Virus genome (UHGV): UHGV-0165622
Length of the DNA: 27,204 bases
DNA from: a virus
Direction: 5' to 3' (one strand)
Shown: in pieces, positions 3,230 through 13,334 of the stretch
Numbering within the stretch: the first letter of the stretch is position 1
Layout: each line of letters opens with the position of its first letter
The notes under the pieces: model-generated
Database searches by the model: none
Told to the model about the DNA's origin: nothing
The model's input: only the letters and a program-made list of their open reading frames with translations
Program-made: the position numbers and the translations under genes

Positions 3230-3408
3230 GACTGCGGGTGCTTGAGGCTATCTGTCTCAGGCATGAACACCAAAAGGCAGATAGAGAAAAGCCCCAGTTA
3301 ACATTACGCGTCCTGCAAGACGCTTAACATTAATCTGAGGCCATATCTATGCGACACATAGAGATTAGCCTCTTACGGACCGAAAGGTCAAGGAGAAGCA
3401 GGCTATGA
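3230..3408 (+). promoter_or_regulatory. hok mRNA leader with mok-like upstream ORF (3349-3408) and probable antisense Sok target region
   Basis: 20-codon upstream ORF whose TGA overlaps the hok ATG (ctATGAag); inverted repeats in the leader (tatctgtctc / gcagatagag) fit hok/sok fold-back regulation. Confidence 0.4.
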
Positions 3409-6211: not shown

Positions 6212-7261
6212 GTGCGGGTATTACTTCGACCTGTTCTGGTACCGGAACTCGGGCTGGTGATCGTTAAGCCGGGCCGTGAATCCATGCCGGTATTCCACAA
6301 TACCCGGGTACTGGTGGAGCCGGAACCGAAAAGCATGCGTAATCTGCCGTCCGGGGTCGTTCCTGCCGTTCGCCAGCCGCTGGCGGAGGATAAATCATTA
6401 CTGCCATTTTTCAGCGACGAACGAGTGATTCGTGCTGCTGGTGGCGCTGGCGCATTGTCTGACTGGTTACTGCGCCATGTTAAATCCTGCCAGTGGCCAC
6501 ACGGCGATTATCACCACAGTGAAACCGTCATTCACCGTTATGGTACCGGCGCAATGGTGTTGTGCTGGCACTGCGACAACCAGCTGCGTGACCAGACATC
6601 CGAATCACTCGAGCAACTTGCTCATCAAAACCTGTCAGCATGGATGATTGACGTCATCGGTCACGCAATAAGCGGTACGCAGGAGCGTGAATTATCTCTG
6701 GCTGAATTATCCTGGTGGGCGGTCCGCAATCAGGTGGCGGACGCGCTACCGGAAGTGGTATTACGTCGTTCGCTGGGGTTGCGTGCGGAAAAAATCCGCT
6801 CAATGTACCGTGAAAGCGACATCGTACCGGGAGAGCAGACCGCCACCAGCATACTGAAACAGCGCACAAAAAATATTGCGCCGCTGCCTCACGCCCACCA
6901 GCAACAGAACCCACCACAGGAAAAGACGGTGGTCAGCATTGCCGTTGATCCTGAGTCTCCGGAATCTTTCATGAAACGACCTAAACGTCGCCGCTGGGTT
7001 AACGAGAAATACAAACGCTGGGTGAAGACACAGCCGTGTGCGTGTTGTGGTAAGCCAGCCGACGATCCCCATCACCTGATTGGTCATGGTCAGGGCGGAA
7101 TGGGGACAAAATCTCACGATATTTTCACGCTACCGCTGTGTCGGGAGCATCACAACGAGCTTCATGCGGATCCTCTGGCGTTCGAACAAAAGCATGGTTC
7201 TCAGGTTGATTTAATTTTTCGTTTTCTTGATCACGCCTTTGCAACTGGCGTGCTTGGGTAA
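6212..7261 (+). CDS. DUF968-family prophage protein (YdfU-like) with C-terminal HNH-like Cys/His motif
   Basis: 349 aa; C-terminus CACCGKPADDPHHLIGHGQGG...LCREHHNELH resembles an HNH motif; position upstream of rusA as in Qin-type prophages. Confidence 0.7.
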   Translation: MRVLLRPVLVPELGLVIVKPGRESMPVFHNTRVLVEPEPKSMRNLPSGVVPAVRQPLAEDKSLLPFFSDERVIRAAGGAGALSDWLLRHVKSCQWPHGDYHHSETVIHRYGTGAMVLCWHCDNQLRDQTSESLEQLAHQNLSAWMIDVIGHAISGTQERELSLAELSWWAVRNQVADALPEVVLRRSLGLRAEKIRSMYRESDIVPGEQTATSILKQRTKNIAPLPHAHQQQNPPQEKTVVSIAVDPESPESFMKRPKRRRWVNEKYKRWVKTQPCACCGKPADDPHHLIGHGQGGMGTKSHDIFTLPLCREHHNELHADPLAFEQKHGSQVDLIFRFLDHAFATGVLG

Positions 7262-7273
7262 AAGAGGTGACTG

Positions 7274-7633
7274 ATGCTCATAGATTTGGTTTTACCTTAC
7301 CCGCCGACGGTGAACACTTACTGGCGACGCCGTGGCAGCACATATTTTATCTCGGAGGAGGGAAAGCGTTATCGCCGGGCTGTGGCGCTTATTGTTCGCC
7401 AGCAGCGGCTGAAATTAAGCCTGTCCGGAAGGCTGGCGATAAAGGTGATTGCAGAGCCACCGGATAAGCGTCGTCGCGACCTGGACAATATCCTGAAAGC
7501 ACCGCTGGATGCGCTGACGCATGCGGGAGTGTTAATGGACGATGAGCAGTTTGATGAAATCAATATTGTAGGTGGTCAGCCAGTATCTGGTGGACGGCTG
7601 GGTGTGAAGATTTACAAAATTGAGAGTGAGTGA
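7274..7633 (+). CDS. rusA: RusA-family Holliday junction resolvase
   Basis: 119 aa; conserved RusA residues (PPTVNTYW, RRRDLDN, DALT..GV..DD) and AAAGAGG Shine-Dalgarno. Confidence 0.85.
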   Translation: MLIDLVLPYPPTVNTYWRRRGSTYFISEEGKRYRRAVALIVRQQRLKLSLSGRLAIKVIAEPPDKRRRDLDNILKAPLDALTHAGVLMDDEQFDEINIVGGQPVSGGRLGVKIYKIESE

Positions 7634-8196
7634 GCGTAAATATGATATATCCGGAAATTACAGGCAAAAGCGGCGAGCATTTACGTCTAAAAACGCTGGA
7701 AGCAGTCTGGATCCAGGGGAAATTACGGATGTGGGGGCGGTGGTCGTATATTGGCGGCGGTAAGACGGGAAATATGTTCAACCAATTACTGACCTCTAAA
7801 AAGCTGACAAAAACGGCAATTAACGAGGCGCTCCGGAGGATGAAAAAAGCTGGTCTGGACAAACCTGAACTTGAGGCTTTTTTGCGGGATATGATCAACG
7901 GCAATCAAAAAAGCTGGCTGGCACATTGTACCGATTCAGAGGCGTTAATAATCGACAGGGTTATTGGTGAAGTCCTGGCAGGCTATCCCGGGCTGCTCAA
8001 TGTCCTGAGTCAGCGTTATGTGGGGCGGGGGATGACTAAGCGCAAAATGGCTGAACTGCTGAATGATGCACACCCGGAATGGAGTTTAAGAACCTGTGAA
8101 AGACGCATTGAGCATTGGCTAAAGGTGGCAGAATTTATTTTGTACAAACCAATGGTTATGGCTTTTGGTATAGAGAAAAAAGTTATTGCTTTTTGA
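7630..8196 (+). CDS. Putative late-gene antiterminator Q-like protein
   Basis: 188-aa ORF in the canonical Q position (after rusA, before the tR'-like terminator and lysis region); loose similarity to phage-21/DLP12-type Q from memory. Confidence 0.55.
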   Translation: MSVNMIYPEITGKSGEHLRLKTLEAVWIQGKLRMWGRWSYIGGGKTGNMFNQLLTSKKLTKTAINEALRRMKKAGLDKPELEAFLRDMINGNQKSWLAHCTDSEALIIDRVIGEVLAGYPGLLNVLSQRYVGRGMTKRKMAELLNDAHPEWSLRTCERRIEHWLKVAEFILYKPMVMAFGIEKKVIAF

Positions 8197-8272: not shown

Positions 8273-8298
8273 GAGCCCGCTTTTTGCGGGTTTTTTTA
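8273..8298 (+). terminator. tR'-like intrinsic terminator downstream of Q
   Basis: Hairpin agcccgc-ttttt-gcggg followed by a T7 run, placed as lambda tR' is. Confidence 0.55.
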
Positions 8299-8618: not shown

Positions 8619-8987
8619 AGGCTTTTTTATTTGTGGTAAATGGGCGGCTGGTGGGTGTGGTGGTTGTTGCTTTCCCGTTGCTGAAAAAGAAAACGCCAGA
8701 CTGTTAGCCGGGTATCAGTTATCTGGAGAAATTTTTAAATACCTCACAATTCAGGCGGTTGACTGTTGTCTGGTTTGCGGGGAGTTTGTTAAAAGAAACT
8801 GGCATGGTGAATCCCCCTGTGCGGAGGGGCAATCAGCGAGTAGGTATATGGGATAATCGCGGATTCAGGTGCTGGTACTGAATTCACCGGGAGGCACCCG
8901 GCACCATGCAATGGCACATAGCGCCACTCTCCAGCCCCTCTCCGGAGGGGCTGTTTATATTGATTTTGTCAGATGTGAGTAAACTCC

Positions 8988-9323
8988 TTATGGACTTTGT
9001 TGTTTTAGTCCATAAGGACATATTTGCAGAGTGCAACGGTTATTAAAGCATTCATTCAATACGTTATCTGTATTTGTAGGACATTCCTGGCTGTTTTTGA
9101 TTAAATTCCAGAATGTTTTATTGAATGGTACTACGTTGTAAATGGTTAAAGGTAGCACTTTGTTATTGAGCATGATACCTGTGTGAGTCAGTGTAAATAT
9201 ACTTTCAGGAGGTAAGAAAGCATCCGATTGATACCAGATTATTAATTTTATTTTACTCCATATGACTGAAAAAGATATTCCGCATGATGGCTGGATAACT
9301 GTATCAATCACAATCCACTTCAT
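8988..9323 (-). CDS. Hypothetical Cys-containing protein in an AT-rich island, opposite strand to the late operon
   Basis: 111-aa ORF; good Shine-Dalgarno (AAGGAAA) upstream of the ATG on the minus strand; AT-rich composition unlike flanking phage genes; an 11-bp perfect inverted repeat (ccttatggact/agtccataagg) lies at its 3' end. Confidence 0.5.
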
Positions 9324-9568
9324 TTAGTTTCCTTGTTTATGTCTTGCTGGTGATGTTCTGAAAAGTATAAATGATATTTTTGAATGTAAACCATAGAGCA
9401 GAATTATTTTTCTGATGTTGTTTATTGTTTATTTAAATGCAGGGTGGTTTATATCTCGTCTTGTAGTTTATCCATGCATATCTGCTTGATGATGAGGTTT
9501 TTATTTAAGGTATGGTTTTGTGTTTTTTCTGTATTACATGTCAGGTATTTTAAAGAATTATTTTTCAG

Positions 9569-11545
9569 ATGGTGGAAAGAACCATGGCATTTAAACACTA
9601 TGATGTTGTCAGGGCGGCATCGCCGTCAGACCTTGCGAAACGACTGACACAAAAACTGAAGGAGGGGTGGCAGCCATTTGGCAGTCCGGTGGCCATCACG
9701 CCTTATACCCTGATGCAGGCCATTGCGGCGGAAGGTGATGTCACCACACCTGTGGTGGTGAAGCCGTCGGATGGAGAAGGCGCAGTTATCAGCACCACCA
9801 GCAACCCGGAGTATTACTTTGTTGTTGCCCTGGCCGGGCAGTCAAACGGTATGGCGTATGGTGAAGGGCTTCCGCTGCCGGAGACATATGACCGTCCGGA
9901 CCCGCGTATTAAACAGCTGGCGCGTCGCAGCACTGTCACGCCGGGTGGTGCGTCCTGTAACTACAATGACATTATTCCTGCGGACCACTGCCTGCATGAT
10001 GTTCAGGATTTGAGTAAGTTTTCACACCCGAAAGCCAGCGCAGCTCAGTATGGATGCGTGGGGCAGGGATTACATATCGCGAAGAAATTGTTGCCGTTTA
10101 TTCCGGCGAATGCCGGTATTCTTCTGGTTCCGTGCTGCCGTGGTGGTTCTGCATTTTTGGCGGGCGATGAAGGTACCTTCAGCGAATCCACCGGCGCAAG
10201 CGAGACCTCGGCACGCTGGGGTGTTGATAAGCCACTGTACAAGGACCTGCTTACCCGTACTCAGGCCGCACTGAAGGCCAACCCTAAAAATATTCTGCTT
10301 GCAGTGGTCTGGATGCAGGGCGAGTTTGATTTGAAACAGGGTGCATACGCCACTCAGCCGGGGCTGTTTGATTCCATGGTGGAAAAATATCGTTCTGACC
10401 TGTCGGAATTCGGAGGTCAGTGTCTCGGGGGCTCTCCGTCATCGGTTCCCTGGATTTGTGGCGACACGACCTACTACTGGAAGCAGACTTATTCTTCGCA
10501 ATACGATGCGGTGTATGGTGCATACAAGACGAAATCCGCAAAAAAAATCTTCTTTGTGCCGTTTATGACGGATGAAAACGGGCGAAATGTGGGTACCAAC
10601 GAGCCGTCAGAAGATCCGGATGTTGCGGATATTGGGTATTACGGAGCCGGTGGTCGAACGGACGCCAAAACCTGGACGACGGCCGACCGTAAAACGCATT
10701 TTGGATCATGGGCACGTCGTGGGATTATTTCCGACCGTCTGGCAACGGCGATTCTTGTGCATGCCGGGAGAAACGCTGAATTCATTACCGGAAAACAGCC
10801 TGATACGGTGAAGCCCACCGGACCTTCCGGTGAAGGTACGGAGAGAGAGCCGGAAGCCCCGGTCAGTAACCGAACCCTGATGAGTCTGCTGGCGTCCGGC
10901 GAAGACCTGGCATCACAGGGCTGGCGCTATTATCACAAACCGGCGAGCGGAGACAATGTTAACAAAAACATTGCTGAAGCGGTGGTCAGTGATGCGGGGG
11001 CTACGGGAGGTAAGGCCCTGCAACTGAATAAACCGGAAAACCACATCTGGTTTCTGGAGCATGATGCAGCCGGACAGGGAGTGGAGTTACTGAAGAAGGG
11101 GGGACGTGTGAGCGTACGGTTTAAGTTGCCGGGTTCACTGGTGCCGAATCAGTTTGCCCTGGGCATTTACTGGCAGTTGTCGTCCCTGCCGGAGGGAGTG
11201 ACGCTGGCAGAGGAAGGCAACGACATGCTGATGTCCTTCTTCCTGCAGACGGATGCGACGAACCTGAACGCGATGCACCACAAGAAGCCGAATGCGAAGC
11301 TGGATACGTTCGGGGTCTTTGATAACGGATGGCACACACTGGCTTTTGAGTTTGCCGGAAACAACAGCATTCAGGTGACGCCGGTACTGGATGAGAAACG
11401 GGGGACGCCGTTCACACTGGTGAAATCTCCGGCATCAGGGGCGGCGGACAAACTGCAACTGACAGGCATATCAAAGGCGGCGACATATACGCTGCTGATT
11501 GACAGTGTGAAGGTGGAAGTGAACAACGCGGACATCGCGGCATGA
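9569..11545 (+). CDS. nanS-p: Prophage sialate O-acetylesterase NanS-p-type protein (N-terminal DUF1737, SGNH/GQSN esterase core)
   Basis: 658 aa; N-terminus MAFKHYDVVRAASPSDLAKRL; esterase motif ALAGQSNGMAYGEG; sits where Stx phages carry the homologous gene between stx and the lysis cassette. Confidence 0.8.
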   Translation: MVERTMAFKHYDVVRAASPSDLAKRLTQKLKEGWQPFGSPVAITPYTLMQAIAAEGDVTTPVVVKPSDGEGAVISTTSNPEYYFVVALAGQSNGMAYGEGLPLPETYDRPDPRIKQLARRSTVTPGGASCNYNDIIPADHCLHDVQDLSKFSHPKASAAQYGCVGQGLHIAKKLLPFIPANAGILLVPCCRGGSAFLAGDEGTFSESTGASETSARWGVDKPLYKDLLTRTQAALKANPKNILLAVVWMQGEFDLKQGAYATQPGLFDSMVEKYRSDLSEFGGQCLGGSPSSVPWICGDTTYYWKQTYSSQYDAVYGAYKTKSAKKIFFVPFMTDENGRNVGTNEPSEDPDVADIGYYGAGGRTDAKTWTTADRKTHFGSWARRGIISDRLATAILVHAGRNAEFITGKQPDTVKPTGPSGEGTEREPEAPVSNRTLMSLLASGEDLASQGWRYYHKPASGDNVNKNIAEAVVSDAGATGGKALQLNKPENHIWFLEHDAAGQGVELLKKGGRVSVRFKLPGSLVPNQFALGIYWQLSSLPEGVTLAEEGNDMLMSFFLQTDATNLNAMHHKKPNAKLDTFGVFDNGWHTLAFEFAGNNSIQVTPVLDEKRGTPFTLVKSPASGAADKLQLTGISKAATYTLLIDSVKVEVNNADIAA

Positions 11546-12440: not shown

Positions 12441-13334
12441 GTGATGAATAAAAAATATGAACTGGTTGTTAAGGGGATAAATAATTACGGGGATAAGGTT
12501 ACTGTTACTGTGAAGCCGGAAGGTGACGGGCAAGCGTCGCTGTTGTTGCCAGATGTGGCGATTAGTCTTGACCGTACTGAAGGTGCCACGCTGGAGTTTT
12601 ACGAAGCTGAGGCGAAAAAGCAGGCGAAGCAGTTTTTCATGGATGTTGCTGCCGGGTTATGTGAATGGAACGAACCGTTGCCGGAAAAGCGCCCCGTAAT
12701 TTTAGAGGCGCAGGATGTGTTGATAACCTACAAAGGAAAGCTACCGGGAAGAATTACTTGTTCTCTGAAGATGCCGCCGTCAACACTGCGGTCAGAAAAA
12801 GATGATGTTGAATCACGTATTGAAAAACTGGAGAGCTACGTCGTTGAGCTGAATAAGAAATGGTCGATATTGGTGCCTTCTGGCGATGAAAAGCAGTTTG
12901 CTGCGTTTGACGATTATTGTCGGAAAGTGATGAGCAGAAATCTCGCAGAGTGTTTCAGTATTCATAATGATAATTTCAGTGACCCGGAATGGGAGTGTAA
13001 CCGGCCATCCTTTGTTGTATCCGGTGATGCTGGGAAAATAACCATCTCAGAAAATGGGAAAGTAACACCTCCATCGCACCAGCACAGTGAGGAGCTCATT
13101 GAATTTGCCATTGATTACCTGAAGAACAATAAAAAGCAGGGGCTGATGAAGCGCGTTGGCCGTTGCATGGGATATCTTCAGGTAGCCGCTGAGATTGAAG
13201 CGCTGGCCAGTGGTGCTGATAAGGATGCAATTGTGCGGGAGGCTCTTCTTCGTGATTTTAATACTCCACCCTTTAAAAAAGTGCCGGCTTACTGGCTTCA
13301 TCCGGGGCTGACTTATCTTAAAGTGCGTATTTAG
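12441..13334 (+). CDS. Unknown 297-aa protein inserted between holin and endolysin
   Basis: ORF starts 2 nt after the holin stop with GGGGAGAG Shine-Dalgarno and ends 36 nt before the endolysin; no recognisable domain; lower GC than neighbours. Confidence 0.7.
   Translation: MMNKKYELVVKGINNYGDKVTVTVKPEGDGQASLLLPDVAISLDRTEGATLEFYEAEAKKQAKQFFMDVAAGLCEWNEPLPEKRPVILEAQDVLITYKGKLPGRITCSLKMPPSTLRSEKDDVESRIEKLESYVVELNKKWSILVPSGDEKQFAAFDDYCRKVMSRNLAECFSIHNDNFSDPEWECNRPSFVVSGDAGKITISENGKVTPPSHQHSEELIEFAIDYLKNNKKQGLMKRVGRCMGYLQVAAEIEALASGADKDAIVREALLRDFNTPPFKKVPAYWLHPGLTYLKVRI

What the first reader, a model, noticed from the sequence alone, without database searches (positions are those of the whole stretch)
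8988..9323. AT-rich, opposite-strand gene with a strong ribosome-binding site inside the late region
A 111-aa ORF on the minus strand sits in a markedly AT-rich island with a canonical AAGGAAA Shine-Dalgarno upstream and an 11-bp perfect inverted repeat at its 3' end. Its orientation against the late operon and its foreign composition mark it as an independently transcribed moron. The product is hydrophobic at the N-terminus and has a Cys-containing C-terminus ([22 protein letters not shown]); function unknown.
Basis: seen in the sequence. Interest (0 to 1): 0.5.

Follow-up and report, generated by a model that had tools for sequence, protein, structure and literature searches.

The report
Prophage iraL gene, a known RpoS stabiliser
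The opposite-strand AT-rich ORF is real but ordinary: it is iraL, a prophage-borne E. coli gene already shown to protect the stress sigma factor RpoS from degradation by blocking the adaptor protein RssB.

Summary
A 111-aa ORF lies at 8988-9323 (-), in a 31.7% GC island within a 50% GC window. It has an AAGGAAA ribosome-binding site and a perfect inverted repeat at its 3' end (12 bp, not 11).

Its function is known. The product matches IraL of uropathogenic E. coli CFT073 (c1429) at 110 of 111 residues. The region from -100 to +33 around the published iraL transcription start differs at 3 of 133 bases. IraL binds RssB and stabilises sigma-S in log phase (Hryckowian 2014, PMC4045071).

The protein scores 161 bits on NCBIfam "anti-adapter protein IraM" (cutoff 121). 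It is 62% identical to K-12 IraM, and its model overlays the solved IraM core (8TWD, TM 0.91). The same ORF occurs in 1446 of 5426 complete E. coli genomes and is annotated there.

It is a discrete 630-bp moron cassette (8953-9582). It sits between the terminator of an STnc100-type sRNA and a nanS-p-like esterase gene, downstream of a Q-like antiterminator, at the position stx occupies in Stx phages.

Verdict: already known, low interest. One point the searched papers do not mention: four C-terminal cysteines are among the most conserved residues in the whole family.

The parts
8988..9323 (-). iraL coding sequence (111 aa), an RssB anti-adaptor of the IraM/IraL/RssC family
   Evidence: ORF list and translation. 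110/111 aa and 333/336 nt identical to CFT073 iraL. NCBIfam NF007393 scores 161.4 bits against a cutoff of 121. PDB 8twd_A IraM E = 1.2e-31. dN/dS against iraM is 0.19.
9328..9334 (-). Shine-Dalgarno sequence AAGGAAA, with 5 nt between it and the ATG
   Evidence: Read from the sequence. It lies within the 33-nt leader of the published iraL mRNA.
9324..9356 (-). 33-nt 5' leader; transcription start inferred at 9356 by identity with the 5'-RACE-mapped CFT073 iraL mRNA end (ACATCACCAGCAAG...)
   Evidence: Published mRNA 5' end in PMC4045071. Position of the match in the window. The leader differs from CFT073 at +15 and +31 only.
9357..9456 (-). iraL promoter region (-100 to -1). A probable -10 hexamer TATACT at 9364-9369 is my own reading; the -35 is weak.
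   Evidence: Identical to CFT073 from -100 to -2, with one difference at -1. In CFT073 the -100..+33 fragment plus the coding region is enough to complement a deletion and to raise sigma-S in K-12. The consensus promoter scan did not pick this promoter up.
8985..9018 (-). 12-bp perfect inverted repeat (10-nt loop) spanning the last codons and the stop codon; a 3' stem-loop without a proper U-tract
   Evidence: It is absent from K-12 iraM, which ends at ...PYGLK*.
8953..9582 (.). The 630-bp AT-rich iraL cassette (31.7% GC), i.e. the moron proper
   Evidence: Homology with the iraL-less phage PhiR5_1 ends at 8952 and resumes at 9583. PhiR5_1 has 233 unrelated bp in between. GC values.
8773..8962 (+). 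Left boundary: an STnc100-family sRNA gene with its intrinsic terminator (stem 8932-8953 plus T-run), convergent with iraL
   Evidence: Rfam RF02076, 132.4 bits against a gathering score of 47, full model length. Terminator scan.
9586..11545 (+). Right boundary: nanS-p-like esterase gene (DUF1737 + SASA + DUF6645). The likely true start is the ATG at 9586, not the mechanical ORF start at 9569.
   Evidence: Pfam domains. RefSeq annotation of homologous loci. The junction alignment shows homology starting near this ATG.
7630..8196 (+). Q-like late antiterminator gene, which places iraL in the 5' part of the late operon
   Evidence: Pfam DUF1133 (352 bits) and Phage_antitermQ (32.6 bits, cutoff 26). 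PHROG 753 'anti-termination protein Q-like'.

Best explanation
The ORF is iraL, a prophage-borne paralogue of iraM. Shown for the near-identical CFT073 gene: it is transcribed from its own promoter during exponential growth in the lysogen. The 111-aa product binds the response-regulator-like adaptor RssB, in two-hybrid assays through its N-terminal receiver domain. RssB then delivers less sigma-S (RpoS) to the ClpXP protease. Sigma-S half-life roughly doubles, so the general stress regulon is partly on even in log phase. Inferred here: the N-terminal ~78 residues form the PmrD-like beta-barrel that contacts RssB, as in the IraM-RssB crystal structure. The gene is a 630-bp AT-rich cassette inserted antisense just after the terminator of an STnc100-type sRNA and just before the nanS-p-like esterase gene, downstream of Q. 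In the lysogen the upstream terminators would shield it from late-promoter read-through. After induction, Q-modified polymerase would transcribe across it in antisense.
For: Identity: 110/111 aa identical to CFT073 IraL, with 3 nt differences in 336. The -100..+33 promoter and leader fragment differs at 3 of 133 positions, and -100..-2 is identical. The published 5'-RACE mRNA end matches at window 9356. Synteny matches the CFT073 potB prophage: Q, small ORFs, iraL(-), DUF1737/esterase, holin, lysozyme, terminase. Family: NCBIfam IraM scores 161 bits against a cutoff of 121. Identity to K-12 IraM is 62%. PDB 8TWD IraM gives E = 1e-31. The AF2 model of residues 1-80 has block-mean pLDDT 77-91 and matches 8twd_A at TM 0.91 and rmsd 1.2 A, then PmrD structures. 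Of the 14 IraM residues listed as RssB contacts, 10 are identical, 3 are conservative changes (T13S, L75I, I64V) and 1 differs (H63N). Function, from the literature on CFT073 and S. sonnei iraL: deletion lowers log-phase sigma-S and halves its half-life (~5 to ~2.5 min). The native-promoter clone raises sigma-S in K-12. IraL co-purifies with RssB and binds its N-terminal domain in two-hybrid assays. iraL mRNA (c1429) rises 1.6 log2 after a 23-to-37 C upshift, and IraL levels were higher in a fur mutant. Reality of the gene: dN/dS is 0.19, and it is present in 1446 of 5426 complete E. coli genomes.
Against: Nothing was measured in the strain this window comes from. The allele has one substitution (L59 here, V59 in CFT073) and three promoter or leader SNPs (-1, +15, +31) of untested effect. 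The -35 element is weak, and the consensus scan missed the published promoter. No canonical intrinsic terminator follows the gene on its own strand. The published two-hybrid result (IraL binds only the RssB N-terminal domain) differs from IraM. So copying the IraM-RssB interface onto IraL is an inference, even though most cluster II and III residues (which contact the RssB C-terminal domain and linker) are conserved. The antisense and terminator-shielding ideas are inferred from layout only.
Confidence: 0.95

Rival explanations
1. It is functionally an IraM orthologue: a PhoP/PhoQ-activated anti-adaptor induced by Mg2+ starvation, not the log-phase expressed IraL.
For: RefSeq and NCBIfam name it 'anti-adapter protein IraM'. 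One PhoP-box-like site (TGTTTATTGTTTATTTA, 1 mismatch) lies at 9419-9435, which is -63 to -79 from the inferred start. It is the only match that good in the 27-kb window.
Against: It is only 62% aa and 71% nt identical to K-12 iraM, against 99% to iraL. The upstream regions of iraM and this gene do not align at all. NF007393 is a 'subfamily' model that covers both. The PhoP-like site arises in 4% of local dinucleotide shuffles of this AT-rich stretch. It is in reverse orientation and not at the -35 position.
Confidence: 0.04
2. The gene is intact but silent or inactive in this host, for example through H-NS silencing of the AT-rich cassette or the -1/+15/+31 SNPs. It would then be a passenger with no phenotype.
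For: At 31.7% GC it is a typical H-NS target composition. H-NS regulation of iraM is cited in the literature (reference list seen). The IraL paper notes alleles with a -35 point mutation of unknown activity. There are three SNPs in the promoter and leader.
Against: The -100..-2 region, including the promoter core, is identical to the expressed CFT073 allele. The ORF allele is 100% identical in other genomes and at least 99% identical in 817 of them. Selection is purifying.
Confidence: 0.08
3. It is a chance ORF in AT-rich DNA, or a small secreted or membrane protein, as the hydrophobic N-terminus might suggest.
For: AT-rich DNA has few stop-free stretches by design of the code, and the N-terminus is rich in I/V/W.
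Against: About 50 full-length homologues exist across Enterobacteriaceae. dN/dS is 0.19. A crystal structure of the homologous N-terminal region shows a soluble beta-barrel bound to cytoplasmic RssB. There is experimental evidence for the 99% identical protein.
Confidence: 0.01

Closest known systems
IraL of uropathogenic E. coli CFT073 (c1429; Hryckowian et al. 2014, PMC4045071)
   Same: 110/111 residues and 333/336 nt are identical. The promoter and 5' leader are the same, as is the position in a lambdoid prophage between Q and the lysis genes, opposite strand.
   Different: L59 here instead of V59. There are SNPs at -1, +15 and +31. Here the downstream esterase gene is intact, whereas it is truncated in CFT073. 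The Q module differs (188-aa DUF1133 type against 273 aa). There are no tRNA genes upstream.
IraM (YcgW/ElbA, b1160) of E. coli K-12
   Same: Same family and fold, 62% identity. Most RssB-contact residues are conserved, and so is the C-terminal Cys4 motif.
   Different: The promoter is unrelated: iraM is PhoP-dependent and induced by Mg2+ starvation. IraM ends 4 residues earlier and has no 3' inverted repeat. It lies next to the e14 element. It is reported to bind both RssB domains, whereas IraL bound only the N-terminal domain in two-hybrid assays.
IraM-like genes of Stx2a/Stx2c-converting phages (e.g. phage 2851, Stx2_EH2201)
   Same: 72.7% identical protein. The slot and orientation are the same: opposite strand, immediately upstream of the nanS-p/yjhS esterase gene.
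   Different: A distinct clade. It sits directly after stx2B rather than after an STnc100 sRNA. It is left unannotated in most of those phage records.
RssC of Salmonella and IraM-named proteins of Citrobacter, Klebsiella, Enterobacter and others
   Same: Same family by profile search, with full-length alignment that includes the Cys4 tail. RssC is described as IraL/IraM-like in PMC4045071.
   Different: Only 20-41% identical. Their contexts were not examined here.
PmrD (connector protein that binds phospho-PmrA)
   Same: Same unusual beta-barrel fold (Foldseek TM 0.70-0.74 to 4HN7, 2JSO, 2RQX). Both are small proteins that bind a response-regulator receiver domain.
   Different: About 12-22% identity over the structural alignments. 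No Cys4 tail (PmrD chains are 81-88 residues). Different target (PmrA, not RssB) and a different outcome (protection from dephosphorylation).
IraD and IraP anti-adaptors
   Same: Same target (RssB) and same outcome (sigma-S stabilisation).
   Different: No sequence similarity, and they use different interaction surfaces.

Membership tests
IraM/IraL/RssC anti-adaptor family (NCBIfam NF007393) | Whole-protein score above the curated cutoff of the family model | tested here: met
   161.4 bits against a cutoff of 121, covering residues 1-110 of 111.
IraM/IraL/RssC anti-adaptor family (NCBIfam NF007393) | PmrD-like antiparallel beta-barrel plus helix in residues ~1-78 | tested here: met
   AF2 model with block-mean pLDDT 77-91 over residues 1-80. 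It matches 8twd_A (IraM) at TM 0.91 and rmsd 1.2 A, and PmrD is the next best match. This is a prediction, not a solved structure.
IraM/IraL/RssC anti-adaptor family (NCBIfam NF007393) | Conservation of the IraM residues that contact RssB (clusters I-III of PMC10844676) | tested here: met
   Cluster I is 5/5 identical. Cluster II is 3/5 identical plus T13S and L75I. Cluster III is 2/4 identical plus I64V and H63N.
IraM/IraL/RssC anti-adaptor family (NCBIfam NF007393) | Binds RssB and slows ClpXP degradation of sigma-S | not testable with these tools
   Shown experimentally for the CFT073 protein, which differs at one residue.
IraL clade (as defined in PMC4045071) | At least 95% nucleotide identity to CFT073 iraL over the whole coding region | tested here: met
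   333/336 = 99.1%.
IraL clade (as defined in PMC4045071) | iraL promoter and regulatory region at least 96% identical to CFT073 | tested here: met
   130/133 identical over -100..+33. 96.9% identical over window 8647-9741.
IraM proper (K-12 orthologue) | At least 95% identity to K-12 iraM, and the iraM (PhoP-dependent) upstream region | tested here: not met
   71% nt and 62% aa identity. The upstream regions do not align.
Phage moron | Discrete insert that is absent from related phages and deviates in base composition | tested here: met
   Sharp junctions at 8952/8953 and about 9583 against PhiR5_1. 31.7% GC against 48-54% in the flanks.
Phage moron | Own promoter and own terminator | tested here: inconclusive
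   Promoter: the sequence is identical to a 5'-RACE-mapped promoter. Terminator: two hairpins lie downstream (8985-9018 and 8932-8953), but neither has a U-tract on the minus strand.

The most novel reading that the evidence does not exclude
The C-terminal tail (residues 81-103) is not a disposable flexible tail. It was left out of the solved IraM structure and is described there as less conserved. I propose it is a Cys4 metal-binding or redox-sensitive knuckle, C-P-x(9-10)-C-x(4-5)-C-x4-C-P, needed for anti-adaptor stability or activity. In an alignment of 31 family members down to 20% identity, the only invariant residues are M1, P12, W72, C81, C97 and C102. C92, P82, P103 and W30 are at least 90% conserved. 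If this is right, IraL and IraM could couple sigma-S stability to zinc or thiol-redox status. A second, weaker idea is that the convergent STnc100 sRNA and iraL transcripts overlap at their 3' ends and regulate each other.
Probability: 0.3. Interest if true: 0.4.

Novelty: already known. Interest (0 to 1): 0.1.

Why it matters
This adds nothing new for the field. iraL, its product, its target and its prophage location were published in 2014, and the gene is routinely annotated. For annotating this window, it identifies a lysogenic-conversion gene that raises RpoS levels during growth and is enriched in uropathogenic E. coli and Shigella isolates. It also shows that the slot just upstream of the nanS-p esterase gene carries RpoS-stability genes in both Stx and non-Stx lambdoid phages. 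The only thread worth a specialist's attention is the strict conservation of the four C-terminal cysteines, a region missing from the available structure.

Tried and rejected
**Pfam.** The scan of the ORF found nothing, even at E <= 10. The protein database's precomputed column lists PF11183 for all relatives. I could not reproduce that hit and do not rely on it.

**Promoter scan.** The consensus scan did not find the published iraL promoter. It reported two other minus-strand sites, 9431-9403 and one inside the CDS, at a rate no higher than in shuffles. I treat these as noise.

**PhoP box.** One 1-mismatch site lies at 9419-9435. Its local chance rate is 4%, and the K-12 iraM upstream region has only 2-mismatch sites. 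I kept it as a weak lead only.

**C-terminal tail against the PDB.** The best hit had E = 0.57, and AF2 gives the tail pLDDT below 50. There is therefore no structural support for, or evidence against, a folded Cys4 site.

**Literature on the tail.** Searches for zinc or cysteine together with IraM found no paper that discusses the tail cysteines.

**tRNA scan.** No tRNA genes were found in the window.

**Signal-peptide or membrane-protein reading.** Rejected on the structural homology.

**Chance ORF.** Rejected on conservation and dN/dS.

Full report
**1. The observation.** The minus-strand ORF at 8988-9323 exists as described. It has an ATG start and 111 codons, and its translation ends ...[31 protein letters not shown].

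It lies in a clear AT-rich island. GC in 300-bp windows falls to 0.30-0.34 between 9000 and 9600, against 0.48-0.58 on either side. GC is 33.6% for the ORF and 28.6% for the 245 bp upstream of it. The whole window is 50.3%.

AAGGAAA lies at 9328-9334 (-), with 5 nt between it and the ATG. The inverted repeat at the 3' end is perfect and 12 bp long (8985-8996 / 9007-9018, 10-nt loop). It includes the stop codon.

**2. What it is.** The product is IraL.
- It scores 161.4 bits on NCBIfam NF007393 'anti-adapter protein IraM' (curated cutoff 121), end to end.
- It matches the crystallised IraM fragment 8TWD chain A at E = 1.2e-31.
- It is 62% identical to K-12 IraM.
- It is 110/111 identical to the protein at CFT073 1343465-1343800, with 333/336 identical nucleotides. 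That CFT073 gene is iraL, c1429.

Hryckowian et al. 2014 (PMC4045071) mapped the CFT073 iraL mRNA 5' end to ACATCACCAGCAAGGCATAAACAAGGAAACCA. The same string, with two substitutions, begins at window 9356 on the minus strand and gives a 33-nt leader. Over the -100..+33 fragment the window and CFT073 differ at -1, +15 and +31 only. In that paper this fragment, together with the coding region, drives functional expression. The upstream region of K-12 iraM does not align with this region at all.

By the paper's own criteria this is iraL, not iraM. Those criteria are at least 95% identity across the coding region and at least 96% in the regulatory region.

**3. Structure check.** An AlphaFold2 model built on 16 family members is confident for residues 1-80 (block-mean pLDDT 77-91). 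It has seven strands and one helix. Foldseek places it on 8twd_A (IraM in complex with RssB) at TM 0.91 and rmsd 1.2 A. Three PmrD structures follow, and nothing else is significant. This agrees with the description of the IraM fold in PMC10844676.

That paper lists 14 IraM residues as RssB contacts. Ten are identical in this protein, three are conservative changes (T13S, L75I, I64V) and one differs (H63N).

**4. How it works.** The steps shown experimentally are for the CFT073 and Shigella sonnei alleles.
- iraL is transcribed in mid-log phase from its own promoter.
- Deletion lowers log-phase sigma-S and cuts its half-life from about 5 to about 2.5 min.
- Single-copy complementation with the native promoter restores it.
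- The cloned gene raises log-phase sigma-S in K-12.
- IraL co-purifies with RssB, and in two-hybrid assays it binds the RssB N-terminal receiver domain only.
- Later transcriptomic and proteomic work reports a 1.6 log2 increase in iraL mRNA after a 23-to-37 C upshift and higher IraL in a fur mutant.

Three steps are inferred for this window: that this allele behaves the same, that it uses the IraM-like surface on RssB, and that it is expressed in the lysogen.

**5. Anatomy and context.** The neighbours on the plus strand are:
- DUF968 (6212-7261)
- RusA (7274-7633)
- a Q-like antiterminator (7630-8196: DUF1133 plus Phage_antitermQ, PHROG 753)
- small ORFs
- then, after iraL, a nanS-p-like esterase (DUF1737 + SASA + DUF6645)
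- DUF1378
- a P21-type holin
- a DUF1327 protein
- lysozyme.

So iraL is in the 5' part of the late operon, antisense to it. In Stx2_EH2201 the order is Q, methylase, tRNAs, stx2AB, an iraM-like gene on the opposite strand, the yjhS/nanS-p esterase, holin. The esterase-proximal slot is therefore the same.

Comparison with phage PhiR5_1, which lacks the gene, gives sharp junctions. Homology runs to 8952, the last base pair of a GC-rich terminator stem, and resumes at 9583, just before the esterase ATG at 9586. PhiR5_1 has 233 unrelated bp in between. The moron is thus a 630-bp cassette, 8953-9582, at 31.7% GC.

The terminator at 8932-8953 (+ strand, followed by TTTATATTGATTTT) belongs to a full-length Rfam STnc100 sRNA at 8773-8962 (132 bits, gathering score 47). 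That sRNA is convergent with iraL.

On its own strand iraL is followed by two strong hairpins but no U-tract. How its transcript ends is therefore open.

**6. Distribution.** The ORF is present at 90% identity or better in 1446 of 5426 complete E. coli genomes, with 1-3 copies per genome. In the listed records it is annotated 'anti-adapter protein IraM'.

The 1-kb region with both flanks is at least 80% covered in 1428 genomes. The immediate context is therefore nearly always the same.

Four deposited phage genomes (the vB_EcoS-...R series) carry it at 97% protein identity. A further 41 phage records, mostly Stx2c and Stx2a phages, carry a 72.7% identical relative.

The wider prophage backbone is mosaic. 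Against CFT073, homology around iraL covers only window 8647-9741, and the Q modules and tRNA content differ.

**7. Family breadth and the one feature not found in the searched papers.** A profile search of 1.84 billion representative proteins found 95 hits. About 50 are full-length proteins of 105-126 aa. The named ones come from Salmonella, Citrobacter, Klebsiella, Enterobacter, Intestinirhabdus, Dryocola and Franconibacter.

In an alignment of 31 members at 20-62% identity to the window protein, the only invariant residues are M1, P12, W72, C81, C97 and C102. W30, P82, C92 and P103 are at least 90% conserved. The same four cysteines are invariant among the 16 closer relatives.

This motif, C-P-x(9-10)-C-x(4-5)-C-x4-C-P, lies wholly in the tail. 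The IraM crystal structure omits that tail, and its authors describe it as less conserved and flexible. They also found full-length IraM proteolytically unstable and insoluble on its own. AF2 gives the tail pLDDT below 50, and it has no PDB relatives. I found no discussion of these cysteines in the searchable literature.

A structural zinc site or a redox-sensitive element is a reasonable hypothesis, but it is untested.

**8. Verdict.** Its function is not unknown. It is iraL, a published and widely annotated RssB anti-adaptor that stabilises RpoS. Novelty: already known. Interest is low, about 0.1. The residual interest lies in the conserved Cys4 tail and in the convergent arrangement with STnc100.

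Noticed in passing
window 8773-8962 (+): A full-length STnc100-family sRNA gene (Rfam RF02076, 132 bits against a gathering score of 47). It ends in the intrinsic terminator 8932-8953 and is convergent with iraL, with the 3' ends about 25-35 nt apart. RefSeq places a minus-strand 'hypothetical protein, incomplete' pseudogene over the equivalent stretch (window ~8792-8917), which is probably spurious.
   Followed up: partly
window 8988-9323 (-), residues 81-103 of the product: Three of the four C-terminal cysteines (C81, C97, C102) are invariant, and the fourth (C92) plus P82 and P103 are at least 90% conserved, across 31 IraM/IraL-family proteins down to 20% identity. This makes them among the most conserved residues of the family. 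The tail is missing from the solved IraM structure and is described there as less conserved.
   Followed up: partly
window 9419-9435 (+): A PhoP-box-like direct repeat, TGTTTATTGTTTATTTA (1 mismatch), lies 63-79 nt upstream of the inferred iraL start. It is the best match in the window, but 4% of local shuffles of this AT-rich stretch give one.
   Followed up: partly
L007 4501-4824 (Stx2_EH2201) and about 40 other Stx2a/Stx2c phage records: A distinct IraM/IraL-family clade (72.7% identical to the window protein) sits on the opposite strand between stx2B and the nanS-p/yjhS esterase gene. It is unannotated in most of these phage records.
   Followed up: partly
window 3236-3407 (+): A sok antitoxin RNA (Rfam RF01794, 106.7 bits). 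Related prophages annotate a hokD toxin gene in this part of the early region (at 2696-2851 in L004, 5127-5282 in L001 and 28301-28456 in L003), so this is probably a hok/sok-type toxin-antitoxin locus.
   Followed up: no
window 12441-13334 (+): A 297-aa ORF between the holin and lysozyme genes. Only residues 2-101 match DUF1327/YdfR. The full length matches PHROG 1085 (unknown function). RefSeq annotates the homologous copies as truncated 'YdfR family' pseudogenes, which may be a mis-call.
   Followed up: no
window 9569-9586 (+): The mechanical ORF start of the esterase gene (ATG 9569) lies inside the iraL cassette. Homology with other phages and the RefSeq annotation point to the ATG at 9586 as the true start, so the cassette supplies the esterase's ribosome-binding region.
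   Followed up: partly
window 8275-8298 (+): A hairpin GCCCGC-TTTTT-GCGGGT followed by a T-run, about 80 nt after the Q-like gene. It looks like a tR'-type terminator of a short late-promoter transcript. It is visible in the sequence, but the terminator scan did not list it.
   Followed up: no
window 1-27204; compare L001 8125-8374 and L003 32304-32553: There are no tRNA genes in this window, whereas the iraL prophages of CFT073 and MCJCHV-1 carry tRNA-Ile/Arg genes between Q and the iraL block. The Q gene is also of a different type. The iraL block is therefore shared among otherwise mosaic prophages.
   Followed up: partly
proteins P0001-P0020: The protein database's precomputed Pfam column lists PF11183 for nearly all IraM/IraL relatives. 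Yet hmmscan of the window protein and of K-12 IraM against the Pfam-A copy here returns nothing, even at E <= 10.
   Followed up: partly
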